In this document: piece by piece, positions 2,604 through 50,468 of the stretch
Numbering within the stretch: the stretch's first letter is position 1
How the letters are laid out: every line of letters begins with the position of its first letter
Assembly (NCBI GenBank): GCA_000004985.1
Contig: GG738848.1
DNA length: 64,000 nt
Source: Naegleria gruberi
Lineage: Eukaryota
Reading direction: 5' to 3' (one strand)
Made by a program: the position numbers and the translations under genes
Notes under the pieces: model-generated
Seen by the model: only the letters and a program-made list of their open reading frames with translations
The model's database searches: none
Told to the model about the DNA's origin: nothing

Positions 2604-2998
2604 TAACTTGTTCCATTATATTTCAATTAAGCTTTTGTTGAATTCAATCACTAATCCTGAGATTCGCCAATGGTGCTTTGATTGAGTTTAGTTTAAAATG
2701 GTTAAAAAAAGACTACAGCACCACAGGTTCCCAAGTTGTCTCCAACCTCAGTACTGATGTGGCTCGACGATACTTAACTTCTCAAATCGGACGGGATGAG
2801 GTGCATTCATCGTTAATTATTTCAATGTAGTTCGAGCCATTTCCTATCTATAAATCTTAATCTTGAATAAGAAAATGATCTGGACTTACAACAGCTCAAC
2901 ACTGGTTTTTGGCTCATTGCTATAAAACGTACTTAAATATAGTTTAATAATTTTTATGAAGAATGCGTTGTTACAATTTTTATGATATTTAAAAAAAA

Positions 2999-11445: not shown

Positions 11446-12672
11446 ATGAGCAAACGAAATAGACAAGATTTTGAAAATTATCATCAATTTATTAATTCGG
11501 AGGAAATATTCACTAACAATTTTAATATTATGGAAGAGAAGGCAAAAAAGAGTGTGAAATTCCAACAAGAAATATTTTCAGATGATGTTTGTTTTGAAAT
11601 AATTTCCATGATTGATGATTCATGGTTTATTTTAAATAATTGTTGTTTAATTTCAAAACAATTCTTTAATGTGATCAAGGAACGTTCAAAACTTGTTATT
11701 CAATTTAACAAAAAATTTACAAAGAAACGAGTTCAATTATTCATGAAAAGTCAATTCATGAATAGTATTGTTAATCTTAAAGTTTCTCGCCGGTTACTTG
11801 ACTCTTTAGAACAACCCAAATTCATAAGTGAAATGAAACAATTAACATCACTTAATATTTCTGACAATCAAATTGGCTTAGAAGGAGCCAAATACATCAG
11901 TGAAATGACACAATTAACATCACTTGATATTAGTGTAAATCGAATTGGTGTTGAAGGAGCTAAATTCATAAGTGAAATGAAACAATTAACATCACTTGAT
12001 ATTAGTGTAAATCGAATTGGTGTTGAAGGAGTTAAATTCATAAGCGAAATGAAACAATTAACATCACTTGATATTTCTGACAATCAAATTGGCTTAGAAG
12101 GATCCAAATACATCAGTGAAATGACACAATTAACATCACTTGATATTAGTGTAAATCGAATTGGTGTTGAAGGAGCTAAATTCATAAGTGAAATGAAACA
12201 ATTAACATCACTTAATATTAGTGTAAATCGAATTGGTGTTGAAGGAGTTAAATTCATAAGTGAAATGAAACAATTAACATCACTTGATATTTCTGACAAT
12301 CAAATTGGCTTAGGAGCCAAATACATAAGTGAAATGACACAATTAACATCACTTGATATTTCTGTAAATCGAATTGGTGATGAAGGAGCTAAATTCATAA
12401 GTGAAATGAAACAATTAACATCACTTGATATTTGTGACAATCAAATTGGTGTTGAAGGAGCCAAATTCATAAGCGAAATGACACAATTAACATCACTTGT
12501 TATTACTAGCAATCGAATTGGTGTTGAAGGAGCTAAATTCATAAGTGAAATGAAACAATTAACATCACTTGATATTTCTGGCAATCGAATTGGTGATGAA
12601 GGAGTTAAATTCATAAGTGAAATGAAACAATTAACATCACTTAATATTAGTGTAAATCGAATTGGTGGATGA
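11446..12672 (+). CDS. F-box-like / LRR protein, paralog of 2999..4240
   Basis: 408-aa ORF with the same F-box-like N-terminus and 72-bp LRR units (ISEMKQLTSLDISVNRIGVEGAKF). The stop TGA arises within a repeat unit (attggtgGatgaagg versus the canonical attggtgatgaagg). Confidence 0.65.
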   Translation: MSKRNRQDFENYHQFINSEEIFTNNFNIMEEKAKKSVKFQQEIFSDDVCFEIISMIDDSWFILNNCCLISKQFFNVIKERSKLVIQFNKKFTKKRVQLFMKSQFMNSIVNLKVSRRLLDSLEQPKFISEMKQLTSLNISDNQIGLEGAKYISEMTQLTSLDISVNRIGVEGAKFISEMKQLTSLDISVNRIGVEGVKFISEMKQLTSLDISDNQIGLEGSKYISEMTQLTSLDISVNRIGVEGAKFISEMKQLTSLNISVNRIGVEGVKFISEMKQLTSLDISDNQIGLGAKYISEMTQLTSLDISVNRIGDEGAKFISEMKQLTSLDICDNQIGVEGAKFISEMTQLTSLVITSNRIGVEGAKFISEMKQLTSLDISGNRIGDEGVKFISEMKQLTSLNISVNRIGG

Positions 12673-13137
12673 AGGAGTTAAATTCATAAGTGAAATGAAA
12701 CAATTAACATCACTTAATATTTCTGACAATCAAATTGGCGTAGAAGGAGCCAAATACCTCAGTGAAATGACACAATTAACATCACTTGATATTTCTGACA
12801 ATCAAATTGGCTTAGAAGGAGCCAAATACATAAGTGAAATGAAACAATTAACATCACTTGATATTTCTGCAATCGAATTGGTGATGAAGGAGCTAAATTC
12901 ATAAGCGAAATGAAACAATTAACATCACTTAATATTAGTGTAAATCGAATTGGTGGAGAAGGAGCCAAATACATCAGTGAAATGAAACAATTAACATCAC
13001 TTAATATTATGACAATCGAAATTGGTGACAAGGAGCCAAATACATAAGTGAAATGAAACAATTAACATCACTTCATATTACTAGCAATCAAATTGGCGTA
13101 GAAGGAGCCAAATACATAAGTGAAATGAAACAATTAT
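12673..13137 (+). pseudogene. Out-of-frame degenerate LRR repeat units (~6.5 x 72 bp) trailing the F-box/LRR gene
   Basis: Repeat units remain recognisable but carry several 1-3 nt indels (12662-12672, ~12870, ~13010) that break the frame. Either a decayed part of the array or assembly errors in a repetitive stretch. Confidence 0.5.
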
Positions 13138-13671: not shown

Positions 13672-15783
13672 TCAGGGAGGAACCAGAGTTGTTTGAGAAT
13701 GAACACTTGGAAATATAACATGCCACAAATATTTAAAGTCCAAAAAGAGAGTTTTCCAATTTAGAAGCATATTTTGAAATCGAATATTGTTGAGAAAGAC
13801 ATATGAATCCGTTTCACATGCCTCCAAACTGTGTGATATGAAATATTTCAGTAGAGGTGAAATTACGTATCGTGTGAATAGATTTGAAATATTTTGAGGA
13901 CGAAAGACTGCCTCTGCCAAGTAATCCACAAACCAAACATAGGAATAGGTATAGTGAAAGACAAGTTGAAGATTTCTACTAAACGTAAAGTTGAATGTGT
14001 AGGGAAGTGGATGTACGTGCTTTTGTCGATTCTTCTTCTTTTCCAATCGAGAAGCAACCAATGATTCATGCAATGCTAAACAAGATTCACACACCAGTGC
14101 AATTCCTCTTCCATAGTAAGGATTAAGTGAGGCAACAGCATCACCCAGAGCGAGGAATCCCTCTACAATTGATTTCTTACCTCTCTTATTGGTAAGAGAA
14201 GGCAAAGTATCCCAATGATTGAACAAGACATAATCTCTCCTGTAAATACTCCAATCCATAACTGGTGGTTCTCCCTCTCCCACAAACTTGGTAAAACACT
14301 CCTCACATACTTTGAAAGCACTTGGAATTTCTTGCTTGATGAATTGGAGAACTGCATCTTTGGATTTTAGGTTTTTGGCCTTTTCAAATGTTCCCAATTT
14401 ACTGACAATAAACATGGCAAGATTATTTTCAATTCTATAGACCATTACTCGTTCAGTTTTGGGAAATTCATTACTATAGACCGTTAGCCATTGAGGTTTC
14501 TTTTCTCTCATGTAGAAACCCTCAGAGAGACATTCTGGCTTGATCTTGAATATTGCCATTACGTTTGTGATTTGAGACTTCTTTTTGGTTTTCTTCATTG
14601 GTTTGGCACGGTGATCAATTTCTGCCACCTCATTCAAAATCCACTCTGGTGTCTTGGTATAAACACCACTGCAATCAATGACCAAGCTGGCATCAAGTGT
14701 GCTTGTCTTTCCATCTATTGAAGGATGTCCACCTATGGCATCAAACTTGTTCTCTCCACTAATCTGTACTCCTACAGCTCTGTGAACGATATTTCCCAAA
14801 TATGTGGGTGAATTAGATTGTTGTTGAGAGCTCGAACTCGATGTATCTGAAATGGTATTATGATCTGGAATTTCACTATACGTTGCAGAGAAAATCTTCT
14901 TGGTAATACTGTCATATGAACTAAAGTGTTCCTCATGATATCGTTCCCAGAGAATATCCTTCACCTCTGTCTTTTCCAATACTATAATATTTTTCAAGTT
15001 TTTTACATAATCTCTGAGCCAACTTTCCAAAAAGGTCCTCGACATCATAATCATGTTGGGAAAGTTCAATAAATTAAGTGGTACTCTCGGTTTACCATTT
15101 GTTCTATAATCAGCCATATCAATACTCAATTCAAAGGCACCTTCTTCGACCATACTCTCAGTGAATGATTTTTCATTCTTGGTCAATAACTTGTCTAACA
15201 ATTGGATACATTTCATCAATAGGATATGAGTCTGATGTCCGTGAGCCACCATCGTATGCCCAGGAACCATCTCCTTCTGTTCCACAATATAAACCTGATC
15301 AAAGTGATGTGAGAGAACACACCCAGACAACAACCCAGATATAGAACCACCAATAATTACACAACTTTTACCAGCTTTGGGTATGTGCTTCTTTTCCAAT
15401 TGTTCAATTTCCTTCTCCAATGTCAAATCAGAGTGTTGCTTAATCTCCAAGAATGGAACTATAAACTTTTTAAATAACTTTACAATAATCGCCTTTAAAA
15501 TAAATACTAGAATAAAAATAAATAAATAATACACCAATAAGTCAATACTATTACAAGATATATTTGAGGATTTGCAAAAATCTTCCTTCCAATCCCTCAC
15601 TCGATCCTTATAAATCACAGTTTGATTCATCACCAAATGTGTCCAATTCTTTAAAGTTTCCCAATCATTCCGATGTTGTTGTTGATGATTCGTATGTTTT
15701 ATCTGATGTTGATTATGATGACTATTCATCACTGATGATGATGATGCCTGTGATGATGGATTACTCCTCAAACTTCCCGTCAT
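13672..15783 (-). CDS. Membrane-anchored FAD-dependent monooxygenase/oxidoreductase-like protein
   Basis: 703-aa ORF. His/Gln-rich N-terminus, one TM (LLVYYLFIFILVFILKAIIVKLF), a dinucleotide-binding motif CVIIGGSISGLLSG (GxGxxG) followed by ...VYIVEQ, and a C-terminal LGDAVASLNPYYGRGIAL segment matching the GD-x-ahxxP-xxGxG motif of flavoprotein monooxygenases. Confidence 0.6.
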   Translation of the reverse strand: MTGSLRSNPSSQASSSSVMNSHHNQHQIKHTNHQQQHRNDWETLKNWTHLVMNQTVIYKDRVRDWKEDFCKSSNISCNSIDLLVYYLFIFILVFILKAIIVKLFKKFIVPFLEIKQHSDLTLEKEIEQLEKKHIPKAGKSCVIIGGSISGLLSGCVLSHHFDQVYIVEQKEMVPGHTMVAHGHQTHILLMKCIQLLDKLLTKNEKSFTESMVEEGAFELSIDMADYRTNGKPRVPLNLLNFPNMIMMSRTFLESWLRDYVKNLKNIIVLEKTEVKDILWERYHEEHFSSYDSITKKIFSATYSEIPDHNTISDTSSSSSQQQSNSPTYLGNIVHRAVGVQISGENKFDAIGGHPSIDGKTSTLDASLVIDCSGVYTKTPEWILNEVAEIDHRAKPMKKTKKKSQITNVMAIFKIKPECLSEGFYMREKKPQWLTVYSNEFPKTERVMVYRIENNLAMFIVSKLGTFEKAKNLKSKDAVLQFIKQEIPSAFKVCEECFTKFVGEGEPPVMDWSIYRRDYVLFNHWDTLPSLTNKRGKKSIVEGFLALGDAVASLNPYYGRGIALVCESCLALHESLVASRLEKKKNRQKHVHPLPYTFNFTFSRNLQLVFHYTYSYVWFVDYLAEAVFRPQNISNLFTRYVISPLLKYFISHSLEACETDSYVFLNNIRFQNMLLNWKTLFLDFKYLWHVIFPSVHSQTTLVPP

Positions 15784-16331
15784 TTTTGTATATTATTTAC
15801 AACAACAATATTAAATAATTTAAATAATTTAAATAAATTGATGATCATTATCATAATTCTCAAAATCGAGAGCAGTAAATATTAATTTGCTGTTGATGAT
15901 CAGAAAAAGTCGCGTTAAGGAAAAACTGAGCAAACAAGTGTTGTTATTTTTTTTGATTTGTTTTTGTGGCCCTAAAAAGGAAAATTAGCTGGAATAGATC
16001 AACCCAAATATGGTACTTTCATTTTACTGTAAAAATCTGAGAAAAATATTCTTTAATTTCAAAATTGCATTGCTAAAAGTTGAATAGATGAAACTAAACT
16101 CTGATTCTGATAAAGTGCTAATATTATTAATTTTGGAAATTAGTAAGTTTTGAGATTTTCTTTTTAGAGCTCTTCCACCTGCAAGAATATATATCTGGCA
16201 GTGTGTACCAGGATCCTCTGTGGTTGTAATTTGTTTCTATTGTAATTTGCTCACGTTATAGAGAATCACGTTTCGAAATCCCTTTAAATTTGTCACACTG
16301 GTAAATTAAACTTGCTTATTCGAAACAAAAA

Positions 16332-17675
16332 ATGCTTTCTTTCGCCTTTAGAGTTTTTAAACCTTTAATTTATAGTGTAGTTGGACTTTTTCAACCTTCT
16401 GATCCTGCTGTATCTTCCTCCTATGTGAGATTGGCCAATACTCTATTCGAATTACATTTTAATTATATTGAGAATAAGAAACCAATTTCCAATTTCTTTA
16501 TAACTTGTGAGTTTGATGGTAAAACAGTGAGAAAGCAAGTATTACTAAAAGGTGATGGAAAACGTGATGGTGGTATCTATCATCATGCAGTTGAACTTCA
16601 TCCACAAAAGTTAATGTCCATTAAGGTGGAAACCGAAAGTGGAAGGTTGTTATTCGAAGCTCTAGATATTAATACCAACAGTTTCAAACAAGAAACTCTA
16701 ACATTAATGGAAATGTCTATTCCAGACAGAAAGCAAGAACTATTCGATTCTATTAAGGACAAATTAATTTCCATTTCCAAAAATGTAATCATTGGATCCA
16801 TGTCCATCACATTTAGTGGCAAATCATCCCTCCTCAACAATATCTTCAAAACACTTGGTTCCAAACATGTTCCATTCCCAGTAGGAAGCACAGAACAAGC
16901 AAGAGAAGCTTACAAACTATTTTATGGAAGTTATCCAAGTAATGATTATTTGTCGTCGTTCACCACTGAAATTCTCAAGAAAAATGTGGATGATGTTGAG
17001 GGAATGGAATCTCTTTGGATTTGGGATTTGCCTGGAATTTTCGAATTTACCACTGCCGGTCAAATGCCAACACTTTTGAGTTTGACAGATGACTTATTGA
17101 ACAAGTTATTTGTTACAAAGAATGGAATGATGAAATTGAATGGTAACCAAGAGGATAAAAAAGTCAATCGAGAAGAAGAAGAATTCTCACTGAAACCTCA
17201 AGCTTTAATTGTAACTCTTCCATTGGAGAATAGTTTCGCCTATAATTCCACAAGTGATAATAATATTGCGTTATATTTTGGAAGAATTTCTGGATTTCTA
17301 TCAAAGGAGCATAATGTGAAATCTGTTTATTGTTATACCAAGATAGACGAAACTTATATTTACCAGAATTACATTTCAAAGAATGTGGGAATTACTAGCA
17401 TGTTGGACGAAACTGATCCTACACCAGATCAAATGAAACTCAATTTACTCAAACAATTCCATGAATGGGATATTTTAGAAAGAAAGGATAATAATTTTCC
17501 AGATATGGTTAACAGTGATCATACAATTCCTTTTTTATCAATCAATTCCCCAACTAAGGAAATTGACAACTTTTTCCAAGTTCAATATTTGGAAGTGTTA
17601 AATCTGGCATTGGATAAATGTTTCCAGAAGAAATCATCCCTCTCATGTGAATCCATTTGCATTGTTAAAAAATAA
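16332..17675 (+). CDS. IIGP/IRG-family (immunity-related GTPase)-like protein with a non-canonical P-loop
   Basis: 447-aa ORF. Ordered motifs: NVIIGSMSITFSGKSSLLN (IIGP1 has NVAVTGETGSGKSSFIN), LWIWDLPGI (IIGP1 FWDLPGIG, G3) and YCYTKIDE (IIGP1 VRTKVDSD, G4). The first Gly of GxxxxGKS is displaced by a 2-residue insertion. Confidence 0.45.
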   Translation: MLSFAFRVFKPLIYSVVGLFQPSDPAVSSSYVRLANTLFELHFNYIENKKPISNFFITCEFDGKTVRKQVLLKGDGKRDGGIYHHAVELHPQKLMSIKVETESGRLLFEALDINTNSFKQETLTLMEMSIPDRKQELFDSIKDKLISISKNVIIGSMSITFSGKSSLLNNIFKTLGSKHVPFPVGSTEQAREAYKLFYGSYPSNDYLSSFTTEILKKNVDDVEGMESLWIWDLPGIFEFTTAGQMPTLLSLTDDLLNKLFVTKNGMMKLNGNQEDKKVNREEEEFSLKPQALIVTLPLENSFAYNSTSDNNIALYFGRISGFLSKEHNVKSVYCYTKIDETYIYQNYISKNVGITSMLDETDPTPDQMKLNLLKQFHEWDILERKDNNFPDMVNSDHTIPFLSINSPTKEIDNFFQVQYLEVLNLALDKCFQKKSSLSCESICIVKK

Positions 17676-17803
17676 GAAGAAGAAACATGACTAAAAGAAT
17701 AAACCTTTCATTTACTTAAGAGGAAACAAATCTTAATTATTTTAAACTATTTGAATTTGTAAATATTGTAAAGTTTTTGTAAAGTTTTTTGTAAACTTGA
17801 AAT

Positions 17804-18577
17804 TTATTCCTTTACAGATTTAAGCAATTTTGATGCACTCGCCAAAATTTCAAAATGATACCCATTTCTCGAAATATATGGAGAGTGTACAATGCGTTTC
17901 ATTTGTGCACCAACGAAAATGAAATCTTTTGGAGTCAAACTTTCAAGCGAATCTGGCGATCTTCCTGATATAAAAATGAAACTCTTTACAATAATCTTTC
18001 GTGTAAATCTTGGTGATTTTTCAACGTGATTGAAAATCGTTTCGTCAAGTTTGTCCATGTGGGGAATATTTTCATAGAATAAATTGTCAATTCTTGGGGA
18101 TTTGACAAGAGTTGGAGAATTAGGTGTGAATGAATTGTAATTTTCTTGAAATTTGTTTTCGAGAAGAGAATTGTTTTGATCTGGTTTTTTGGCAAAGTAT
18201 TTGCATGTTACTAATGTTGGCTGGATCAAAAATAGAATGCTTATCATTATCATTTGAAAGATTGACAACAAGATGATTGAGATATACGAAAGTGAAACTG
18301 AAACCAAGACGGCAAGAGATGATTTTTGAGAGAATGTCAATTTCTGGGTAGTACAATAACCCAAGGAAGTTAAAAATCTCAAATTGAACAAGAAAATTGA
18401 ACCAGCATCTTCGTGATGAAGAATTGTCAATAAGAGTTCCCACCAATTTCTATACGATACTCGACTATTGTCTGTAAAAAACAAAAGGAAGGGTAGAAAG
18501 TTTGCCAACAAGTAAATCCATCCATTTCTATCTTCCATAGCAAGCTCTTGGTGCATTCTGATTCTTTCGTAATTCAT
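17804..18577 (-). CDS. Multi-pass membrane protein (hypothetical). Start reassigned to the second Met (ORF as supplied runs to 18667)
   Basis: Five or six hydrophobic helices. The first 30 codons of the supplied ORF overlap three copies of the promoter motif AAACGTGAT and translate to repeated NHVS peptides. The internal Met at 18577 (MNYERIRMHQ...) is more plausible. Confidence 0.4.
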   Translation of the reverse strand: MNYERIRMHQELAMEDRNGWIYLLANFLPFLLFFTDNSRVSYRNWWELLLTILHHEDAGSIFLFNLRFLTSLGYCTTQKLTFSQKSSLAVLVSVSLSYISIILLSIFQMIMISILFLIQPTLVTCKYFAKKPDQNNSLLENKFQENYNSFTPNSPTLVKSPRIDNLFYENIPHMDKLDETIFNHVEKSPRFTRKIIVKSFIFISGRSPDSLESLTPKDFIFVGAQMKRIVHSPYISRNGYHFEILASASKLLKSVKE

Positions 18578-18589
18578 TTTTTTGTTATT

Positions 18590-18685
18590 CGAAACGTGAT
18601 TTTCCTCCTTACCAATCTTAACATTCCTTGAAACGTGATTTTTCAACAATCCTAAACAGACTGTCATCAGAAAACGTGATTAAAC
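18590..18685. promoter_or_regulatory. Three evenly spaced (~40 bp) copies of GAAACGTGATT in the shared upstream region of divergent genes 17804(-) and 18700(+)
   Basis: Copies at about 18591-18601, 18630-18640 and 18671-18681. The same motif occurs as a triplet at 27006-27085 and once at 16264-16275. Confidence 0.5.
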
Positions 18686-18699
18686 TTTAAAAAAAAACG

Positions 18700-19401
18700 A
18701 TGGGTAGATTAGTATATCTTGCAGCTGCAGGATTAGTTGGATATTTGCTTGGAACGAGACAAACTAATACTGACAGCCCAAGTTCACTTTCGAATAACTC
18801 GCCACAATCATTGATTGAGGTTTCTACAACAGACCCAGTTGTGGAATTTCAGCAATTGGCTGTGGTTTCTAATCCCAGTGATATTGAAGAAACATCATCT
18901 ACAGCTTTGGAAGTTATTCTAAACGATTCGTCTCCCAAATCCCTCACATGGTATAATACTGCACTCTATACTACAATTCTATTACTTTCATGTAAACTTG
19001 GAGTTTCGATTTATACCACACTGTTCACAACCTTCAGTATTCCAATGTCTTTGCAAGAACAGATTCGTATTCCAATTCTAATAACTAAAAACTATTCCTC
19101 TGAATGCTACAATCACTCTCTCCTTCTCAATCTACTCAATAGCAAAATGAAAGATTCTCGCTTCACATTTGAATTTTGCTCAGCTCCCGAAAAACCTCAT
19201 TTGAATTGTTGTTTCTATCTGGAAGATAGTAGAGATGTGAAAAGTCCATTCGACAAGTCAATTCTCTACATTGTGAATAGTAAAATAGCACAAGCAGTGA
19301 ATAGACCTCACATGTTCGTGTGTGCTCATTCGACCAATATTTTGGAATTGAAGAATATTCAGAATTTGATGGAATATTTGGAGATTAATTTTGTGGTATA
19401 G
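18700..19401 (+). CDS. Hypothetical protein
   Basis: 233-aa ORF. N-terminal hydrophobic segment (signal/anchor-like). No recognisable motifs. Confidence 0.4.
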   Translation: MGRLVYLAAAGLVGYLLGTRQTNTDSPSSLSNNSPQSLIEVSTTDPVVEFQQLAVVSNPSDIEETSSTALEVILNDSSPKSLTWYNTALYTTILLLSCKLGVSIYTTLFTTFSIPMSLQEQIRIPILITKNYSSECYNHSLLLNLLNSKMKDSRFTFEFCSAPEKPHLNCCFYLEDSRDVKSPFDKSILYIVNSKIAQAVNRPHMFVCAHSTNILELKNIQNLMEYLEINFVV

Positions 19402-19434
19402 ATATGGATTAGAATAAAAATATATAAAATTGGT

Positions 19435-22400
19435 TTATTGAAAGGATCCAAGTTGAATCTTGTTGTGTTTTTGAACCATTGCATAGAACATGGATGAGTG
19501 ATCGTTTAATAATTGTGTTGGACTTGCAAATTCTTTCACAATTCCATCATCAATGACCACAACTTTATCATAATCCAAAATAGTTTCCAATCGGTGGGCA
19601 ACACAAATGACAGTACATTTCTGGGAGAATTCATTTCTCAAGACTTGTTGGATTAGTTTGTCAGTTTCCAAATCGCAGAGAGCTGTGGCTTCGTCCAATA
19701 CGAGAATTTTACAGTTTCGAATAAGTGCTCTGGCAAGACAGAGTAATTGTCTTGTACCTGCTGAGATGTTTTCTCCATTTTCTGATATTTCCATTCCTAA
19801 TCCTGTTGCTCGAGGTTGAATCTCATCACTTTCTTCATTCGAAAGTTGGAATAATTTATCTTTCATTCCAACCTTTTCCAATGCATTCCAAAGCTCCCGA
19901 TCTGTAAATTGTGAATATCCATCAAGATTATCTCTTAATGTTCCTTTAAAGAGTGTTGGCTGTTGAGGAATGATACACAAGGCACTTCTCAAAGTTTCTA
20001 AAGGAACATTTCTAATATCAATTCCATCTACCAAAATGGAAGATTCTGATTCAATTTCTTGCATTCTGAATAGAGATTGGATTAAACTTGATTTTCCACA
20101 ACCTGTCCTTCCACAAACAGCAATTCTTTCCTTTTCCTTAATAGTTAAATTAATTCCTTTAAGAACTAATTTGTTAGTCACTTGATTATTCGACTCTAAA
20201 CTCTTGTACCTCATTAATACATTGTTGAAATTAATGTTTCCCTCACTCGCAAAGCTTTCAACTTTTTCACCTACTCCCTCAGGTTCATATTTTTCACTTT
20301 CCAAATTTGAATATTGGTCAATTCTTTGAATGGAAACTAAACCATTTTCTATCAATACCAATAAATAAGACAAGTAATATAAAACATCAAAGTTTGAAGT
20401 AGCTTGTAGAATAATCATTCCAACAAGTGGACCTCCAGATGCTAAAACACTTGACATGATAATAACCGAAACGGCAAGACCACCCAATATTTCATTTCGA
20501 ATATCAAAGTATTTGTACATGCACTGAATATTATATCTCACGTGTACGTGGTTATCTGCCTTAAATTCGAATAAATCTTTCATTAATTCTTCCTTTCCAA
20601 ATGCACGAATGGTTTGAAGGCCATTAAGAGTTTCGGATATTTGAGAACTGAGTGGAGATGAATAAATTCCAGACAATGTTGACAATTCTCTCAATGTAAC
20701 TCTAAAGTAACTTTGATAATACAAGATTATTGGGAATAAAATAACTAAAATAAATATGGAAAATGGAGAAAGTATTAAAATGGTAACTAGGCCAAAAATC
20801 CAAAACATGAGAACTGGAACAAACTCTCTCAACAATGAATTCAACTCACTATCAATTTGATTAGTATCTCTGGTAAATCTTGCAATAATTCTACCCACTG
20901 GTGTATTATCAAAAAAGGTAATACAAGAATTAACAATACTGTTCATGAGTTTTTCATGAAGTTTCTTTGCAGTATTCAAATAATGGGATAGAGCAAGGAA
21001 ATTACCCATCACATCTACGCATACATAAAGAATAGCACTTCCTAAATAAGTCATTAAATAGAAAATTAAAGTGAAATTTTCATATTTCTCATCAGTTGAC
21101 CATTTGGTAAGGACATATTGATGAACAACATCAAGAATTTTGAATATAATTCCAAGAATGCAAATAACTACAAATATTGGCTTGTTATAACCAACAGCAA
21201 ACTTGAGAAGAGTTTTGTAATTTTCCCAAACTGTTCCCTTCACTCGTTGTTCTTCTTCTATGGATGTGAATTTCTCCAATGATTCGTCATCATTTGGAAG
21301 TAGTTGAAGAGTTGGCTTGATTTCTTCTTGTTCAGTTTCGAATAAATCTTCTTCGACTTCTTCCTTCTTTTTACTAAACTCATCAATCAAATTTCTAAAT
21401 ACATTATTGGAATCTTGATAAAGTTCATGATAAGTTCCATTCTGAATGATTTTTCCATCTTCAAATACAAGAATTCTCTCTGCTTTGTCAATAAAGTGAA
21501 TTTGATTCGTGACCATAATTGTTGTTTTACCAGCTTCCAAAAGTGGAAGTATTCCAAATTTCATAATATGATCTGCAGTGTGAACATCAACTGCTGAGAG
21601 AGGATCATCCAATAGATAAACATCTGCGTTCGAATAGAGACATCTTGCTAAGGAAACTCTCAATTGTTGACCTCCTGACAAGTTGACACCATTTTCACCA
21701 ATCATACTCAAATCTAAAATTTCTTTTGAGATTTGATAAAGATCAGTTTCTAAATTGCATGCGTGTAATACTTTGGAATATCTTTCCGAATTAAATTCTT
21801 CACCAAAAGTTATATTTTCACGAATAGTTTGGTTTCTAATCCAAGAATCTTGTGAACAGTAGGCATATTTGAGTTTAGATTGTTTTTGGAAAGTGGAACA
21901 GCCATCATCTATTAGTCTAGTTTCTCCCAATAATGAAGATAAGAAAGATGACTTTCCAGAACCGACCTTTCCAATAACACAAATAAACTCACTCTTTCTA
22001 ATTGACAAATTCATTCCTTTCAAACAAGAAACAGGTTCAGTAGAATCAACAGGATCCCAAGTAAATGAAGCATCTTTCATTTCTGTAATTATTTCATCAT
22101 TTTCCACTTGGGCAATTTGGTGTGAAACTTCTTCAGCTCTCAGAAACTTGACAATTCTGTTAAATCCAGTTACTGCTCTTGAAACTTGTAATGCAGATGA
22201 AGGAAGTTGAATTGTTTCATATCTTACCAATTCCAAAGCATTAAGGAAGGAGAATGCAAGACTAACACTCAAAGATTGATTGCTGAAATAACAAAAATGG
22301 ACGAAACTGACAAATGAAATGAAAGGAGCAAAAGTATTCCACAAGCATTCCATTCCTGCGTCTGAAATGAACCCCTTCTTAATATTTCTCATCTCAGTTT

Positions 22401-23391
22401 CTCTAATATTCATAATCTTGTCTTTAAATAGTTTCTCCATTGTATAATATTTGACAAATCTCATAGCAGAAACTAATTGTGAAATAATTTCACTTCTTTC
22501 GTCCTGGTTCGACTCTATAATCTTTTCCATTCTCTGCTCCCAAATCATACAAACAATAGAAATTGGAATAATCACAAGTAAAATGGCAGAGAATCCAACA
22601 AGTGCTGAAATTCCTAGAAGAAATATTGAGAAGGAAATGGAAACTGAAATGTAAACAAAAGCTCCAATGATAATTTCAACATGATAGTAAAACCATTCGA
22701 ACTTTTCAGTGTCAGTCGTTGCAATATTCATAACCGTTCCAGTTGAGTATTCTTGCTTGGAGCTAGAGTTTAGTTTAAGTGTCTTGTTGTAAATTGCATT
22801 AGAAAGGGAACTCTTTGTAAACTCTCCAATTTCTTGAGCAATGAATAGGCCGTGATCTGCACAGAATGTTTTCACAACCTTACAAATAAATAGGATTATA
22901 CAAAAACCAACAATATATGAAACTGATTCAATATTCAAGTCATTATTGGAAAGTGTACTTTCACAATATATCAAAATAATGTTCAAAATGAATAATCTTG
23001 CAACTTCTGAACCAATCAATATCAATTTCAATACAAATGCCCAAGCAATCTGTAAAAAGTACAACTTGACAAAAAACCAAGCACATTTCCATGTGGAAAT
23101 TTCAGCTGAATTCTCAAATGTTTCAATAAACTTTTCAAAGGGTTTCGAGCTTGATCTAAATCCCCATGATGGCTGCATCTTGGTCAATTCATTCAATTCT
23201 AAAAATCCTTTAGAAAAAACCTTCTTAATCATTGGCTGTACTGAACTAAACGTGAATGCACTCCATAAATGTCCAATCGAACATCCATTAGAATATGCTG
23301 TTTCGTCATATATCGTTTCCTTCCTTCTAAATGTTGAAGAGCATTGGGACATTTCAAGTTGTTGTTGTGTTTTTTTGATATTTTCATTCAT
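19435..23391 (-). CDS. ABC transporter, ABCC/MRP-type full transporter (TMD-NBD-TMD-NBD)
   Basis: 1318-aa ORF. NBD1: Walker A GKVGSGKSSFLSSLLGE and signature LSGGQQLRVSLARCLY. NBD2: Walker A GRTGCGKSSLIQSLFRM and signature-like ISAGTRQLLCLARAL. Two 6-TM blocks. Confidence 0.9.
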   Translation of the reverse strand: MNENIKKTQQQLEMSQCSSTFRRKETIYDETAYSNGCSIGHLWSAFTFSSVQPMIKKVFSKGFLELNELTKMQPSWGFRSSSKPFEKFIETFENSAEISTWKCAWFFVKLYFLQIAWAFVLKLILIGSEVARLFILNIILIYCESTLSNNDLNIESVSYIVGFCIILFICKVVKTFCADHGLFIAQEIGEFTKSSLSNAIYNKTLKLNSSSKQEYSTGTVMNIATTDTEKFEWFYYHVEIIIGAFVYISVSISFSIFLLGISALVGFSAILLVIIPISIVCMIWEQRMEKIIESNQDERSEIISQLVSAMRFVKYYTMEKLFKDKIMNIRETEMRNIKKGFISDAGMECLWNTFAPFISFVSFVHFCYFSNQSLSVSLAFSFLNALELVRYETIQLPSSALQVSRAVTGFNRIVKFLRAEEVSHQIAQVENDEIITEMKDASFTWDPVDSTEPVSCLKGMNLSIRKSEFICVIGKVGSGKSSFLSSLLGETRLIDDGCSTFQKQSKLKYAYCSQDSWIRNQTIRENITFGEEFNSERYSKVLHACNLETDLYQISKEILDLSMIGENGVNLSGGQQLRVSLARCLYSNADVYLLDDPLSAVDVHTADHIMKFGILPLLEAGKTTIMVTNQIHFIDKAERILVFEDGKIIQNGTYHELYQDSNNVFRNLIDEFSKKKEEVEEDLFETEQEEIKPTLQLLPNDDESLEKFTSIEEEQRVKGTVWENYKTLLKFAVGYNKPIFVVICILGIIFKILDVVHQYVLTKWSTDEKYENFTLIFYLMTYLGSAILYVCVDVMGNFLALSHYLNTAKKLHEKLMNSIVNSCITFFDNTPVGRIIARFTRDTNQIDSELNSLLREFVPVLMFWIFGLVTILILSPFSIFILVILFPIILYYQSYFRVTLRELSTLSGIYSSPLSSQISETLNGLQTIRAFGKEELMKDLFEFKADNHVHVRYNIQCMYKYFDIRNEILGGLAVSVIIMSSVLASGGPLVGMIILQATSNFDVLYYLSYLLVLIENGLVSIQRIDQYSNLESEKYEPEGVGEKVESFASEGNINFNNVLMRYKSLESNNQVTNKLVLKGINLTIKEKERIAVCGRTGCGKSSLIQSLFRMQEIESESSILVDGIDIRNVPLETLRSALCIIPQQPTLFKGTLRDNLDGYSQFTDRELWNALEKVGMKDKLFQLSNEESDEIQPRATGLGMEISENGENISAGTRQLLCLARALIRNCKILVLDEATALCDLETDKLIQQVLRNEFSQKCTVICVAHRLETILDYDKVVVIDDGIVKEFASPTQLLNDHSSMFYAMVQKHNKIQLGSFQ

Positions 23392-24621
23392 TGAAAAACG
23401 TGTTTTTGTGTTTTTTAAAGGATAACCGAAGGTTACCGTTCAAGAGGTTCAAAGGTGAATTTGAAAGTAGTAAGGAAGCATTTCTTGTTGATTTCAAGGG
23501 AATCTCATTGTAAACTAATGAGACTCAGATATTGTGGTTAATTTGAACCTCAATCTTGAAAATGAGAATTTCAAAATTGATTGCCATTGGAATGTTTAAA
23601 TTTGATTGAATATTTAGAAGTGAATTATAATAATTCATGTTGAATGAATACTCCGTGATCCTCAGGAGGTTAAATTTACTAATTCTCAGCAATTGATGAA
23701 GGTGTGATGGGTGCTTCTAATGTTGGACATGATGATGTTTCGAATCGGAATGGTTACATGTTGTTATAATAATAATTCGTAATTCGTTTCTTGAGCAGAA
23801 GACTCCTTGTTGGGTTGTTTTATCCAATCATGATGTTGTTGTAGTGTGGATTTTTTTATTAAAATTTAAAAAGCAATCAAATTTGGCGGTTTTCCAAAGT
23901 AACGGTTTTTTCAAATAAAAAATAAACAAGACACTTTATTAGAGACATGTTCATCGTCTTGTTGTTTGTCTAAAAGCAATACACTTGGATGTACACCGTG
24001 TAGACGTGCGGTTCATACATGATACTAAAAGCTATTGGAGAACATAATATGATTATAATTTAATCAGGCTTTTTGTTAGTCTGGTACCATCATAATATTA
24101 AATTCAGCATCATAGCGGTTTAAGGATTCCTACTCTGCAGCCCTTCAATACAACATCTAACAACTATGACTCAAAATATGTTATATTGTTGATTGATGAA
24201 GAATGGAACGATAGCTACCAGGAAATGTTATTAGAAGGTAGATGAAATTTATATGGCAGATGATGCTCTTGTTGCTTCATCAGGCTTCGACACTTGGCAA
24301 ACAGACTAAGAGTTCGCAATTACCTTTTAATCATACTCAATATCCAGTTTATCACAATATAGGAAGAGCCCACTTTGCAATATCACATGTTTTATTATTA
24401 CAATATCATTTTGATATTGTTGAATATTATATAATTCAATTTAATGGTTTTCCACAAAAGAAGTCATGGTTTCGTTCATTTGAAAGGGTTAGAATGGTTT
24501 ATTACAATATAATACATGGTGGTGTATGCCATTTTGTGGCAATACTGAATTCGCGCTAAATGTGTTCAGTTAGAGAGAAATGGTTTCGTCAGAAGTATTG
24601 AGAGAAGAAGAAACGGTTTGT

Positions 24622-24795
24622 TTAGAATACCATTCCAATAACAGCCAAGATAGCAATCAATAACATGGCAGCAAATCCTTGTTCAGCAGCACCAGCATAT
24701 ACTTCAGATTCGTGATATTGAGCATTAATTGGTGAGGCAAAGAAGAACATGATACAAGCCAAGAGCATCATGACGAGGAAAGTTTGAGTGTTCAT
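24622..24795 (-). CDS. Small (57 aa) predicted secreted/membrane peptide: signal peptide plus C-terminal TM
   Basis: Minus-strand reading MNTQTFLVMMLLACIMFFFASPINAQYHESEVYAGAAEQGFAAMLLIAILAVIGMVF*. It is below the ORF-track size cutoff. Codon usage matches neighbouring genes. Confidence 0.3.
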   Translation of the reverse strand: MNTQTFLVMMLLACIMFFFASPINAQYHESEVYAGAAEQGFAAMLLIAILAVIGMVF

Positions 24796-25329
24796 TTTGA
24801 ATAGTTTTGATTAGTTTTGTTTAGTTGTTTTGTTTTGTTATTGTTTCAGAATCTAACGGCACAGTTGTTAATTTATAGGACTTTTCGAATACATACTGAA
24901 ATGGTCAAGTGGTTCCGTAAATGCTTCCATTACGAAATTTGTGTTCATCACTACAATTTAAGAAAACGGCTGCCGATATGAATTTTCTTCAAATGTAGTA
25001 TTCAGATAACAACATCGGCAATAATACAACCATTCTCAAATTCATCCACTTCTCAAAAAGACGAAACTAATCTCTACATGAATTTGAGAGAATCAAATCA
25101 TGCGATATCAAAACGAATATTACACTCACTTTCCTAACATTCTATTTTATTGGCATATTAGAAAAATTCAATATGGAATTGGAAACACAAGTTTACAATT
25201 CTAAACATCTCTTAATATATTGACCTGACTTGAAAAACTTTACAAATCTCTTTACAAAGTCTTTCGGTGTAAGGAGGAATTGTTGTGGCATTTTGATCGA
25301 TATCCGTAAAATTAAATAATAAAATGGTT

Positions 25330-25402
25330 TGCTGACGGACGGGATCGAACCGGCGACCAATGGCTTATTAGACCAACGCTCTACCGACTGAGCTACGCCA
25401 GC
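25330..25402 (-). tRNA. tRNA-Ile (anticodon AAT)
   Basis: Reverse complement: GCTGGCGTAGCTCAGTCGGTAGAGCGTTGGTCTAATAAGCCATTGGTCGCCGGTTCGATCCCGTCCGTCAGCA. 7-bp acceptor stem, GTAGAGC D-arm, anticodon loop CTAATAA, GGTTCGATCC T-loop, one C-U mismatch in the T-stem. Confidence 0.8.
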
Positions 25403-25567
25403 TTACATTCATTACAAATAACCTATAGAATTATGTAATAAAACAAATAACAATTTGTGCGAGATCCAATTTATCCTAGCTGTTAGCAATTCATTATTAA
25501 AATTGTTTTAATACAGCAGATCTCGTCAATCATCACAAGTTGATAGTGTGGTTGTATTGTAATGTAA

Positions 25568-25648
25568 GTTGAGGTGGCCGAGTGGTTAAGGCGCCAGCCT
25601 GCTAAGTTGGTGGAGAAATCCGCGTGGGTTCGAATCCCATCCTCAACG
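25568..25648 (+). tRNA. tRNA-Ser (anticodon GCT), long variable arm
   Basis: GTTGAGGTGGCCGAGTGGTTAAGGCGCCAGCCTGCTAAGTTGGTGGAGAAATCCGCGTGGGTTCGAATCCCATCCTCAACG. Class II tRNA with 3-bp D-stem, anticodon loop CTGCTAA, 13-nt variable arm, GGTTCGAATCC T-loop. Confidence 0.85.
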
Positions 25649-25741
25649 ATTTTGCTTGTTGGGTAAAATAAATTTTTGAACTGCTTTACTTGTTATTTCC
25701 ATTTTGATTTTCTTCTGAAGAAGCATGTACAATATATTTCA

Positions 25742-26947
25742 TTATTTATTGAAAGAAGTATTGTCAAATGCAACTTTTGTGTCTTGAAACAAATCTTGAA
25801 GAAATGAATAATCGACATCATTGTCGACCACCTTTTCCACAACTGGGACTGGATTTGAAACATTGATAAATATCAATTTCTTCAGTTTCTCATAGAATTC
25901 AGAAATAATATCAGCAAGAGGTTGGACAAGAACTTGGAAGACACCTGTCAGAATATTCCAAATAAATTTCCAAGTAAATGAAACTGTGGCTGCACCCACT
26001 TTGGTGGATTCAATTAAATATTTGACAAATGATTGCAAATATCCATTAAAATTATAGTTGAATGAATCCTTTTCCTTAAATAGTGAAATAATTTGAGTAA
26101 TTGTGAAATAGGCCAATCCTGCTACAGCTGTGATAAACAAAGATTTGAGATCTAATTTGATTTTCTTCATGGCCAAAGCAGGAACTAGAACTGAAGTAAT
26201 GGCCAGCAATTTTTCATAGCTGAAAGTTTTTAAAAGGTAAACTTCTGAAACAAGTTCCCAAATCTTTCCTAAAAATTGAGAAATGGTTTCGTCTTGAAAA
26301 TCAAATGGACTTGAAATTGGGACTACCTTATCTCCACTACATAGTAATGCCAATTGTTTGAAATTAATCAAATTCTTTGCCTTTTTGAAAAGAGTTTTCA
26401 TATCTGAACGTTGGTCAACTGTGGCATACGGTTGACAGTTCAGTGTCAAGATAGAAATGTCCTTGTCAGGATACTGTTTCTTCATCTTGTAAGCAACTTC
26501 ACAGGCAACGCTTCCTCCAGCTTTATAGCCAGTTACAATAATGTTGTAATTGGTTGTTTTAACTGAAGGCGCAAACTTTTCATAAATCATATTCGAAACT
26601 TGGCTAATAGTTTCCAAATCCTCCTTCTCTTCATTAAATGACTTGCAAACCAAAACGATCAATTGCTTGCCATCAAATTGAATAAATTGTCCAAGAGAAA
26701 TTCTATTCTCAAAGTTACACGAAACGGTCGAATCTGCAATGAGAGGTTTTACGTCTTGTTGCGAAACAACTTGTGCAAGCCATTTCTTTGTTGGAAAATT
26801 GTCAATGTCAATGACTTGCAATTCTTCGAATGGTTGGCTAGTCACGACAGGAATGAGAGATTCTAATGAATGGACCGATTCTAATGGTGTTAGTGATTCT
26901 ACTGATTCGACTGAGGATGTGAACCATCCTGTTAACCAACTTGACAT
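25742..26947 (-). CDS. Lipase class 3 (alpha/beta-hydrolase) domain paralog with a non-canonical nucleophile elbow
   Basis: 401-aa ORF. ...TTNYNIIVTGYKAGGSVACEVAYKM aligns to the lipase_3 core VVVTGHSLGGALA, with GYKAG in place of GHSLG (Lys at the Ser position; a GGSVA follows). C-terminal amphipathic/hydrophobic region. Confidence 0.55.
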   Translation of the reverse strand: MSSWLTGWFTSSVESVESLTPLESVHSLESLIPVVTSQPFEELQVIDIDNFPTKKWLAQVVSQQDVKPLIADSTVSCNFENRISLGQFIQFDGKQLIVLVCKSFNEEKEDLETISQVSNMIYEKFAPSVKTTNYNIIVTGYKAGGSVACEVAYKMKKQYPDKDISILTLNCQPYATVDQRSDMKTLFKKAKNLINFKQLALLCSGDKVVPISSPFDFQDETISQFLGKIWELVSEVYLLKTFSYEKLLAITSVLVPALAMKKIKLDLKSLFITAVAGLAYFTITQIISLFKEKDSFNYNFNGYLQSFVKYLIESTKVGAATVSFTWKFIWNILTGVFQVLVQPLADIISEFYEKLKKLIFINVSNPVPVVEKVVDNDVDYSFLQDLFQDTKVAFDNTSFNK

Positions 26948-27005
26948 TTTTTTGAAGATTTGAAGCTTGACAGTTGCATTAGAGAATGATTAGTTGTGCT
27001 TCACG

Positions 27006-27085
27006 ATCACGTTTTGATTAATAACCCAAAAAATCTTAAACGTGATAATCATTTTGTTCAAAGTGTCAAATATCAATCACGTTTT
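27006..27085. promoter_or_regulatory. Triplet of AAACGTGAT motifs (mixed orientation, ~35-40 bp spacing) in the 172-bp divergent promoter between the two lipase-3 paralogs
   Basis: atcacgtttt at 27006-27015, aaacgtgat at 27038-27046, atcacgtttt at 27076-27085. Confidence 0.5.
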
Positions 27086-27119
27086 ACATTTTAAATAATT
27101 AATTCGAAAAAAAATAGAA

Positions 27120-48961: not shown

Positions 48962-50468
48962 TTAATATTTTTCATGTAATTCTTGGAAGTGTGTTTCGGT
49001 TTTCTTCCTATTCAAGAAAACTAGTAAAATACACACCACAATACACAATGCAATCAAAGATAGAATAAATAATACACCAACAGCAATAATTGGCTTCAAT
49101 GTAAATAAATAATCAACTGGAGCAGTACTGAATTGAAAGTTTCCACCTTTTGAGAATACTACATAGTATTGAGTTGCTTCTCCTGAAAAGAGATAGAGAT
49201 TAGTTGAATTTACATGATAGTCATAATTGAAAAATTGATTTCTTTCAATATTCCAAGTGATTGGTTTCTTTCCAATATAAACATCTTGAATTGTTGCTGT
49301 ATTTTCAATTCTGATTTCAAAATATGTTTGAGGTTGAGTGGTGAAAGTTGCTGTGAATGGTGCGGAATTATCACTTTGAATTGAGTATGTTTGTCCAATT
49401 TCAAGTTTAGTATAATTAAAACTAATCTTTTTAGCATAAAACAAATTATATACAGCACTGGGTGGAGAAATTGTGAATGAATAATCTGGATTTCTATTGG
49501 AGATGACTTGTTGTGTAAGATTTGATTGAACAATGGCTACCATTTCTTGATTTGAATTTGAGAATTGCCACACTGATTGAACTGGATCATTAGATTTCAA
49601 CTCTTGAGCTATCAATGAAATGCAACCATAATTTTGATAGAAATGATCTTCTTTCACACTTTCAATTGAATTCCATTCATTTACCAAACAATTCCCAATA
49701 TAAAATAAAACATTTCGTTGCTGAATAGGATTCAGTTTCAACACCAAATTAGGTTGTCCATAAACGNNNNNNNNNNNNNNNNNNNNNNNNNNNNNNNNNN
49801 NNNNNNNNNNNNNNNNCTGATTTCATTCTGGGAATGTTAAATTTGCAAAATCCACATTAATTTCCATAACTTTTCCCCATTCAACTGGTTTTGTTTCTCC
49901 ATATGGACAAGCAAGTTTAGATTTTCCAGAAAATCCATAATTGATAACACCACCTTCTTTTGATTCACCAGTGAATGTGAGAGTTGGTCTTTCAGCAGCA
50001 GTGAAATCACATGTTAAAGAAATAGACAATGCTCTTGTAACTCCATCAGTAGCAGGAATACCAGCATGGAAGACCTTTACACCAGCACTTTCATCTGCAG
50101 GATTGAGCAATGAAAGTTTAGGAGTACCTTTCTTACCGATAGGATAGCAGAGATTGTATTGTTTAGCATATAGATATCCTTGAGCGTCAACAGTACAAAC
50201 AGCATTGCTTGGATTGGTAACTCCTCCACAAATATTGCTAAAATTCCAACTAATTAGTTTCCGATAATAATAAACAAAATACATACAAATAAAAGTTGAA
50301 ATTAGCATCGGTTGCTGCAACTTTATATCCTGAACCAGGAATATCAATATTAGAAAGGTCGATAATTCCTCTATAAGCAATTGGTAATGAACAAGTCGGT
50401 GCGGAGAATACAACATGCACACAACAAGCAAGCAGCAATGTGAGCAACACAAAGGTCAATCGTAACAT
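48962..50468 (-). CDS. MRH-like type I membrane glycoprotein, paralog A (exon 1 50287..50468; exon 2 50237 down to 48962, interrupted by the N-run 49757..49816 and a 1-nt indel next to it)
   Basis: Signal peptide MLRLTFVLLTLLLACCVHVVFSA and GTATGT/TTTTAG intron as in paralog B. Cys-rich N-terminal domain ending ...GKSKLACPY (MRH-like). C-terminal TM plus cytoplasmic tail. The stretches 49210-49533 and 51077-51400 are near-identical. Confidence 0.5.
49757..49816. other. Scaffold gap (60 N)
   Basis: Run of n. Homology with paralog B shows the flanks are essentially contiguous (B has ...gaaatcag|tttatgg...). Confidence 0.95.

What the first reader, a model, noticed from the sequence alone, without database searches (positions are those of the whole stretch)
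18590..18685. Triplet of AAACGTGATT motifs at ~40-bp phasing in a 120-bp divergent promoter, implying a mis-called start codon
GAAACGTGATT occurs three times (18591, 18630, 18671) with 39-41 bp spacing, immediately upstream of gene 18700(+). In the supplied ORF table these lie inside the first 30 codons of the minus-strand ORF 17804..18667, where they translate to the repeated peptide NHVS. A regularly phased DNA motif is much more likely to be regulatory than coding. The internal Met at 18577 (MNYERIRMHQ...) is probably the true start, which places all three motifs in a shared bidirectional promoter. The spacing suggests multimeric factor binding.
Basis: seen in the sequence. Interest (0 to 1): 0.55.

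Follow-up and report, generated by a model that had tools for sequence, protein, structure and literature searches.

The report
Repeated promoter motif in Naegleria gruberi
Three copies of a short DNA word sit in the 122-bp gap between two back-to-back genes of the amoeba Naegleria gruberi and recur in neighbouring promoters, so they are most likely docking sites for one gene regulator, which is a real but ordinary kind of feature.

Summary
AAACGTGATT occurs three times on the + strand (18592, 18631, 18672; spacing 39 and 41 bp). The 11-mer with a leading G occurs only twice.

The window is Naegleria gruberi nuclear DNA. The reference protein XP_002682179.1 (NAEGRDRAFT_62816, 257 aa) already starts at the internal Met (ATG 18577). 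The "mis-called start" therefore comes from the longest-ORF table, not from the annotation. The 18577 ATG has the AAAAAA run typical of gene starts in this window; the 18667 ATG has none.

The motif is far beyond chance. The core AACGTGAT occurs 10 times against 1.6 expected, and no simulation produced two copies within 100 bp. Clusters also sit in two other divergent promoters, at 16251-16273 and 27005-27084, in both orientations. The 11 best matrix hits in 64 kb all lie within 16.2-27.1 kb, across six adjacent genes.

Spacers between copies are unrelated, and no RNA family or structure was found. The best reading is a homotypic cluster of binding sites for an unidentified factor that recognises an ACGT core (the AACGTG "T/G-box" type), shared by a local group of genes. 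Fixed 40-bp phasing is not a general rule.

No orthologous loci, genome-wide data or literature on the motif could be reached. Function is inferred, not shown.

The parts
18592..18601 (+). Motif copy 1, AAACGTGATT (extended TTCGAAACGTGATT). Its nearest end lies 14 nt upstream of ATG 18577 of the minus-strand gene.
18631..18640 (+). Motif copy 2, AAACGTGATT (GAAACGTGATTTT is identical to copy 1 over 13 nt).
18672..18681 (+). Motif copy 3, AAACGTGATT (preceded by GA, not G). It ends 18 nt upstream of ATG 18700.
18578..18699 (.). 122-bp intergenic region between the two divergent start codons; candidate bidirectional promoter. No RNA family match, and the region folds less well than its shuffles.
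17804..18577 (-). Gene NAEGRDRAFT_62816 (XP_002682179.1, 257 aa, orphan with hydrophobic segments). True start at ATG 18577, preceded by AAAAAA.
18700..19401 (+). 233-aa ORF with an N-terminal hydrophobic segment. It has no homologue and is not in the protein collections. The codon-usage score is positive in this frame only, and the ATG is preceded by AAAAAAAAACG.
16251..16273 (-). Second cluster: TCACGTT (16251-16257) plus an exact AATCACGTTT (16264-16273, extended AATCACGTTTCGAA), 58-80 bp upstream of ATG 16332 of NAEGRDRAFT_62815.
27005..27084 (.). Third cluster, in the 172-bp gap between two divergently transcribed class-3-lipase-like genes: 27005-27014(-) AAACGTGATC, 27038-27047(+) AAACGTGATA, 27075-27084(-) AAACGTGATT.
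23396..23405 (+). One-mismatch copy, AAACGTGTTT, 4 nt upstream of ATG 23391 of the ABCC-type transporter gene 19435..23391(-). Best matrix hit outside the training sites in non-coding DNA.
16560..16569 (+). Intragenic near-copy, AAACGTGATG, inside the NAEGRDRAFT_62815 coding sequence. Status unknown; it lies within the motif island.
23248..23257 (+). Intragenic near-copy, AAACGTGAAT, about 140 bp inside the ABCC coding sequence. Status unknown.
18022..18031 (+). Intragenic near-copy, CAACGTGATT, inside the NAEGRDRAFT_62816 coding sequence. Status unknown.

Best explanation
The three AAACGTGATT copies are a homotypic cluster of binding sites for one sequence-specific transcription factor. They lie in the 122-bp promoter shared by NAEGRDRAFT_62816 (start at 18577) and the unannotated ORF 18700..19401 of Naegleria gruberi.

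The conserved core is AAACGTGAT, an ACGT-core element of the AACGTG/CACGTT "T/G-box" type. In other eukaryotes such elements are read by dimeric bHLH or bZIP proteins.

The same element marks the promoters of neighbouring genes: NAEGRDRAFT_62815, the two lipase-like genes, and probably the ABCC transporter. The likely role is co-regulation of a local group of six lineage-specific genes, several with membrane or lipid-related features.

Shown here: the motif exists, is non-random, lies in non-coding DNA, recurs in neighbouring promoters in both orientations, and the start codon is at 18577. Inferred: protein binding, the class of factor, and co-regulation.
For: - AACGTGAT occurs 10 times against 1.62 expected; 0 of 100 shuffles reach this.
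- Seven of the 10 lie in the 28% of the window that is non-coding, in three clusters, each at a divergent gene pair.
- In 300 simulations none gives two copies within 100 bp; the window has two clusters of three.
- In the alignment of the eight sites (seven cluster sites plus the one-mismatch ABCC copy), only AAACGTG and one further T are invariant and the flanks differ.
- The spacers between the three copies are no more alike than shuffled sequence (p = 0.27), and Tandem Repeats Finder finds nothing. The word is kept while its surroundings are not.
- Pieces of the motif are the only rare k-mers shared by the four promoters.
- In an unbiased 8-mer ranking of intergenic DNA, the motif comes just after coding-repeat and low-complexity words.
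- The 11 best matrix hits in 64 kb all lie in 16.2-27.1 kb, including 4 hits not used to build the matrix.
- Start at 18577: reference protein and AAAAAA context.
- No Rfam family matches, and the folding z-score is +2.0.
- AACGTG is a documented bHLH (MYC2) site in plants (PMC6021540).
Against: - There are no binding, expression or transcription-start data.
- No orthologous promoter could be retrieved, so conservation is untested.
- The Willaertia magna ABCC locus (L001) is not syntenic and carries no copy.
- All statistics come from one 64-kb window; genome-wide enrichment is unknown.
- The outer copies lie only 14 and 18 nt from the two ATGs. They may fall in the 5' UTRs or core promoters rather than upstream of them.
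- The ORF 18700..19401 is not confirmed as an expressed gene.
Confidence: 0.7

Rival explanations
1. The motif is a core-promoter, transcription-start or 5'-UTR (RNA-level) element rather than an upstream factor-binding site.
For: The proximal copies lie very close to start codons: 4 nt (ABCC), 14 nt (62816), 18 nt (ORF 18700) and 35 nt (lipase 27120). For four genes the proximal copy reads ATCACGTTT in the sense direction.
Against: The distance to the ATG varies from 4 to 108 nt. There are two or three copies per promoter. Both orientations occur relative to the nearest gene. The motif is absent from the other roughly 20 gene starts in the window, so it is not a general core element. The region shows no RNA structure.
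Confidence: 0.12
2. The triplet is a decayed local tandem duplication of about 40 bp with no function. The other occurrences are unrelated.
For: The spacing is regular (39 and 41 bp). Copies 1 and 2 share 13 identical bases.
Against: The spacers are not significantly similar (p = 0.27) and Tandem Repeats Finder finds nothing at score 30. Decay that spares exactly the 10-mer three times implies selection. Independent clusters with different flanks and orientations exist at 16.26 kb and 27.0 kb.
Confidence: 0.06
3. The copies are coding. Translation starts at ATG 18667 and the protein carries a repeated NHVS peptide.
For: The 30-codon extension is open. Its codon score is ambiguous rather than clearly non-coding: 26% of stop-free intergenic windows score at least as high, and 17% of genic windows score as low or lower.
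Against: - The reference model starts at 18577.
- ATG 18667 has no A in positions -6 to -1, unlike all 24 other ORF starts.
- That start would leave only 32 bp between the divergent ATGs.
- The third copy lies outside the ORF.
- The motif recurs in non-coding DNA in both orientations.
- A 30-codon open stretch upstream of a true start has roughly a 10% chance at this base composition (my estimate).
Confidence: 0.03
4. The motif belongs to a mobile element, a structured RNA gene, or a chance pattern.
For: None beyond the repetition itself.
Against: - The flanks of the copies are unrelated and no terminal inverted repeats were found.
- Rfam finds only a 5S rRNA and two tRNAs, all elsewhere in the window.
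- The region folds worse than its shuffles.
- Chance is excluded.
Confidence: 0.02

Closest known systems
Plant T/G-box (AACGTG / CACGTT), a G-box variant bound by MYC2-type bHLH factors
   Same: All seven strong sites, and the ABCC site, contain the hexamer AACGTG. PMC6021540 calls AACGTG a classic MYC2-binding sequence. The element acts in gene promoters, often in several copies.
   Different: The Naegleria word is longer and asymmetric (AAACGTGAT, often followed by T). None of the sites is the palindrome CACGTG. The organism is a heterolobosean amoeba, the binding protein is unknown, and no jasmonate-like pathway is implied.
Class-B E-box sites of bHLH-Zip factors: yeast CDEI/Cbf1 RTCACRTG, the Pho4 CACGTT variant, the SREBP E-box ATCACGTGA (from my own knowledge, not checked here)
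   Same: Read on the other strand, the motif is ATCACGTTT. That matches 7 of 8 positions of ATCACGTG and contains the Pho4-type CACGTT.
   Different: One half of the palindrome is consistently replaced by TTT. No evidence was obtained that N. gruberi has such a factor. This is a resemblance in sequence only.
[quoted passage not shown]
   Same: Two or three copies lie within 25-90 bp in short (122-172 bp) gaps between divergent genes. Orientation is mixed, and the word is conserved while the spacers are not.
   Different: Nothing distinguishes it in kind. The particular word and the apparent restriction to six adjacent genes are the specific features.

Membership tests
Homotypic cluster of transcription-factor binding sites | A short word recurs locally far more often than base composition predicts. 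| tested here: met
   10 copies against 1.62 expected, 0 of 100 shuffles. 0 of 300 simulations give two or more copies within 100 bp, against two observed clusters of three.
Homotypic cluster of transcription-factor binding sites | The sites lie in non-coding DNA upstream of genes. | tested here: met
   With the start at 18577, all three copies are intergenic. Seven of 10 core copies lie in the 28% of the window that is non-coding, all at divergent gene pairs.
Homotypic cluster of transcription-factor binding sites | The same word occurs in other promoters, independent of flanks and orientation. | tested here: met
   Clusters at 16251-16273 and 27005-27084 and a single site at 23396. The flanks are unrelated and both orientations occur.
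Homotypic cluster of transcription-factor binding sites | The sites are conserved at orthologous promoters of related species. | not testable with these tools
   The flanking genes have no retrievable homologues. N. gruberi loci are not in the positional index. Metagenome and viral scans gave only unrelated loci.
Homotypic cluster of transcription-factor binding sites | A protein binds the sites and they affect transcription. | not testable with these tools
   Needs EMSA or DAP-seq, ATAC footprints, or reporter or mutation assays.
G-box / E-box (CACGTG) element | Palindromic CACGTG hexamer. | tested here: not met
   None of the 7 sites has CACGTG; all have AACGTG/CACGTT. The few CACGTG hexamers in the window lie elsewhere (9344, 20539, 41660).
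T/G-box (AACGTG) element | AACGTG hexamer in a promoter. | tested here: met
   7 of 7 sites plus the ABCC site. The definition comes from PMC6021540.
T/G-box (AACGTG) element | Bound by a bHLH (MYC2-type) or bZIP dimer. | not testable with these tools
   No transcription-factor gene lies in the window.
Tandem repeat / minisatellite | Whole units of the period are similar, not only a short word. | tested here: not met
   Tandem Repeats Finder finds no array at score 30. The spacer alignment is no better than shuffles, p = 0.27.
Coding peptide repeat (NHVS) | The repeat lies inside the translated part of the gene. | tested here: not met
   The reference protein starts at 18577. The context of ATG 18667 is atypical. 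The third copy lies outside the ORF.
Structured non-coding RNA | Match to an RNA family, or folding better than shuffles. | tested here: not met
   No Rfam hit in the region. Minimum free energy is -6.1 kcal/mol against a shuffle mean of -12.1, z = +2.0.

The most novel reading that the evidence does not exclude
AAACGTGAT is a previously undescribed cis-element of Naegleria gruberi that defines a physically clustered regulon. Six adjacent, lineage-specific genes within 11 kb carry it: a GTPase-like protein, two small membrane orphans, an ABCC transporter and two class-3-lipase-like proteins. The other 53 kb of the window carries essentially none. This would be a co-regulated gene island, perhaps a lipid-scavenging or export module, switched by one ACGT-reading factor. 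The factor's central CpG could be sensitive to the cytosine methylation and TET system that this organism has.
Probability: 0.3. Interest if true: 0.5.

Novelty: new member of a known kind. Interest (0 to 1): 0.3.

Why it matters
My searches found no published cis-regulatory motif for Naegleria, an early-branching eukaryote used as a model for the pathogen N. fowleri. A well-defined 9-10-bp word with strong local statistics gives a concrete starting point for three things:
- Genome-wide motif and regulon mapping.
- Identifying its binding factor.
- Testing whether neighbouring genes in Naegleria are co-regulated as a block.

It also flags a probable unannotated gene (18700..19401). In addition, an A-run immediately before the ATG is a useful criterion for choosing start codons in this genome. 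The start-codon point itself adds nothing, because the reference annotation is already correct.

Tried and rejected
1. Orthologous promoters.
- The minus-strand gene has only its own N. gruberi entry as a hit.
- ORF 18700 has no hit at all in 1.8 billion representative proteins.
- The lipase-like ORF 27120 has no hit.
- Exact look-ups of N. gruberi proteins and window ORFs in the contig index failed.
- The only heterolobosean locus obtained was the Willaertia magna ABCC locus, L001. It is not syntenic and has no motif copy.

2. Collection scans. I scanned viral and metagenome collections for two motif copies 20-50 bp apart. None was related to the window by blastn or tblastn; the only hit outside L001 was a weak 26%-identity match of the ABCC protein to L047. 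The motif-rich ones are unrelated tandem repeats.

3. Codon-usage test of the 30-codon extension. It is uninformative once stop-free windows are used as the control.

4. Literature. There is no paper on a Naegleria promoter motif, on the exact word, or on the locus tags.

5. Function of the neighbours. Pfam and PDB searches gave only a sub-threshold GTPase hint for 62815 and nothing for the two genes flanking the motif.

6. Other readings. Tandem-repeat, mobile-element and RNA-gene interpretations were tested and rejected.

7. A second shared promoter word. Only ubiquitous words (TTCGAA, TTTAAA, A-runs) are shared besides the motif.

Full report
**What is there**

Reading 18400-18900 shows AAACGTGATT at 18592-18601, 18631-18640 and 18672-18681, all on the + strand. 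Start-to-start spacing is 39 and 41 bp. Copies 1 and 2 share 13 bases (GAAACGTGATTTT). Two copies fall inside the mechanical ORF 17804..18667(-), where they read NHVS. The third lies 5 bp beyond that ORF's ATG.

**Origin of the window**

- The long ORF is 100% identical over 90% of its length to "predicted protein [Naegleria gruberi]", P0121. That entry is EFC49435.1 / XP_002682179.1 / NAEGRDRAFT_62816, on a 712,659-bp scaffold.
- The neighbouring ORFs 16332..17675(+) and 13672..15783(-) are exactly NAEGRDRAFT_62815 and NAEGRDRAFT_78219.
- The window has about 33% G+C and is gene-dense.

The window is therefore N. gruberi nuclear DNA.

**Start codon**

- P0121 has 257 aa and begins MNYERIRMHQ. 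The public annotation is already right; the 287-aa version exists only in the longest-ORF table.
- Independent support comes from the start context. Most ATG-initiated ORFs of at least 150 aa in the window are preceded by an A-run.
- ATG 18577 is preceded by AAAAAA. Only 13 of 2586 ATG triplets in the window have six A's at positions -6 to -1, and 8 of those 13 are ORF starts.
- ATG 18667 is preceded by TTTCTG, with zero A's. None of 24 other ORF starts has zero.
- A start at 18667 would leave 32 bp between the divergent ATGs.
- A codon-usage test of the 30-codon extension is uninformative once it is compared with stop-free intergenic windows.

**Is the motif more than chance?**

- The core AACGTGAT occurs 10 times against 1.62 expected; 0 of 100 dinucleotide-preserving shuffles reach this.
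- Seven of the 10 lie in the 28% of the window outside ORFs.
- They form three groups, each in a gap between divergently oriented genes:
  - 16251-16273: TCACGTT plus an exact AATCACGTTT, 58-80 bp upstream of NAEGRDRAFT_62815.
  - The triplet at 18592-18681.
  - 27005(-), 27038(+) and 27075(-), in the 172-bp gap between two ORFs with class-3-lipase similarity.
- In 300 Markov simulations no sequence had two copies within 100 bp.
- In an unbiased ranking of intergenic 8-mers, AACGTGAT comes directly after words that belong to LRR coding repeats, CAA-type low complexity, and the very common TATTCGAA.

**Not a duplication, a mobile element or an RNA**

- Tandem Repeats Finder reports nothing at score 30.
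- The two spacers are no more similar than shuffled versions, p = 0.27.
- An alignment of eight sites (seven cluster sites plus the ABCC copy) leaves only AAACGTG and one further T invariant, with unrelated flanks.
- Pieces of the motif are the only rare k-mers shared by the four promoters.
- Rfam finds only a 5S rRNA and two tRNAs, all elsewhere.
- The 122-nt region folds worse than its shuffles, z = +2.0.

**A motif island**

A matrix built from the seven sites puts the 11 best hits of the whole 64 kb inside 16.2-27.1 kb. Four of these were not used to build the matrix:
- 23395, whose AAACGTGTTT lies 4 nt upstream of the ATG of the ABCC-type transporter 19435..23391(-).
- 23247, about 140 bp inside that gene.
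- 16559, inside the 62815 coding sequence.
- 18021, inside the 62816 coding sequence.

The 11-kb span is 17% of the window, so four of four independent hits falling there has a probability of about 8e-4 (my arithmetic). The span holds six adjacent protein-coding genes:
- NAEGRDRAFT_62815, with a weak, sub-threshold GTPase hint.
- NAEGRDRAFT_62816.
- ORF 18700..19401.
- The ABCC transporter.
- The two lipase-like genes, which are only 21% identical and so are not a recent duplication.

**Spacing**

ACGT-centre distances are 39 and 41 bp at the triplet, 31 and 39 bp at the lipase promoter (with alternating orientation), and 15 bp upstream of 62815 (my calculation from the coordinates). Most intervals are 30-40 bp, but there is no fixed period and no helical register. 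The claim of multimeric binding from phasing is not supported, though five intervals cannot exclude it either.

**Mechanism**

The best-supported reading is a homotypic cluster of binding sites for one sequence-specific factor. The sites lie in a compact promoter shared by two divergent genes, and the same element is reused in the neighbouring promoters.

The core AACGTG/CACGTT is the T/G-box variant of the G-box, described as a classic MYC2 (bHLH) site in plants (PMC6021540). On the other strand, ATCACGTT resembles class-B E-boxes; that comparison rests on my own knowledge. A dimeric bHLH or bZIP-type reader is therefore the most likely class of factor. This is inference only, and no such gene lies in the window.

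The outer copies are only 14 and 18 nt from the ATGs. A role at the core promoter or in the 5' UTR therefore cannot be excluded for those copies. Variable distance, multiplicity and mixed orientation argue against it as the general explanation.

**What could not be done**

- No orthologous locus, genome-wide scan, or expression or transcription-start data were reachable.
- Literature searches found no description of this word or of any Naegleria promoter motif.

**Verdict**

The regulatory reading and the start codon at 18577 are supported, although the start is already correct in the reference annotation. The phasing argument is not supported. In kind, this is an ordinary feature: a new, undescribed instance of an ACGT-core promoter element in a poorly studied protist. 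It comes with a moderately interesting hint of a co-regulated six-gene neighbourhood.

Noticed in passing
window 18700-19401 (+): This 233-aa ORF has coding-like codon usage in this frame only and an A-rich start context. Its exact sequence is absent from the 15-billion-protein collection, and it has no hit at all among 1.8 billion representatives. It is probably an unannotated orphan gene of N. gruberi.
   Followed up: partly
window 19435-23391 (-), 25742-26947 (-), 27120-28250 (+), 28277-29521 (-): None of these long intact ORFs (an ABCC transporter of 1318 aa, two lipase-like ORFs, and a 414-aa ORF) is in the protein collection as an exact sequence. The nearest N. gruberi ABCC protein is a 62%-identical paralogue on another scaffold. 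The reference gene models here may differ or be missing.
   Followed up: no
window, start codons of most ORFs of at least 150 aa (e.g. 585, 2999, 4379, 11446, 16332, 18577, 25742/26947, 56806): Start codons are typically preceded by a run of 5-8 A's. Six A's at -6 to -1 occur at only 13 of 2586 ATG triplets, and 8 of those are ORF starts. This is a strong, simple criterion for choosing start codons in this genome.
   Followed up: partly
window-wide; e.g. 18586-18593, 16317-16324, 562-569: TATTCGAA occurs 35 times in 64 kb (12 in intergenic DNA against 0.9 expected), mostly inside coding sequence. TTCGAA directly abuts two motif copies (TTCGAAACGTGATT at 18588 and, on the - strand, at 16264) and lies 14-24 bp upstream of several ATGs. 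Whether it is a signal or a compositional quirk was not resolved.
   Followed up: partly
window 16200-27100: The 11 best matrix hits for the motif in the whole window lie in this 11-kb span, including hits inside coding sequence at 16559, 18021 and 23247. This suggests a local co-regulated gene neighbourhood.
   Followed up: partly
window 2710-2832 (-); 25330-25402 (-); 25568-25648 (+): A 5S rRNA gene lies between protein-coding genes. A tRNA-Ile(AAT) and tRNA-Ser(GCT) pair lies in the 2.3-kb gap upstream of the lipase-like gene.
   Followed up: no
window 2999-4240 (+), 11446-12672 (+) and on to about 13150: These are paralogous LRR_6-type leucine-rich-repeat genes. The 72-bp repeat word GGAGCCAAATA... 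continues past the stop of ORF 11446..12672 into supposedly intergenic DNA (12746-13104). This suggests a longer gene, an intron or a frameshift.
   Followed up: no
window 49767-49816: A run of 50 N's, an assembly gap, between the ORFs 48962..49747 and 49823..50452.
   Followed up: no
window 36477-41726 (-): A 1749-aa protein with TPR, PAS and adenylate/guanylate cyclase domains. It carries one isolated AACGTGAT at 36855, consistent with the chance expectation.
   Followed up: no
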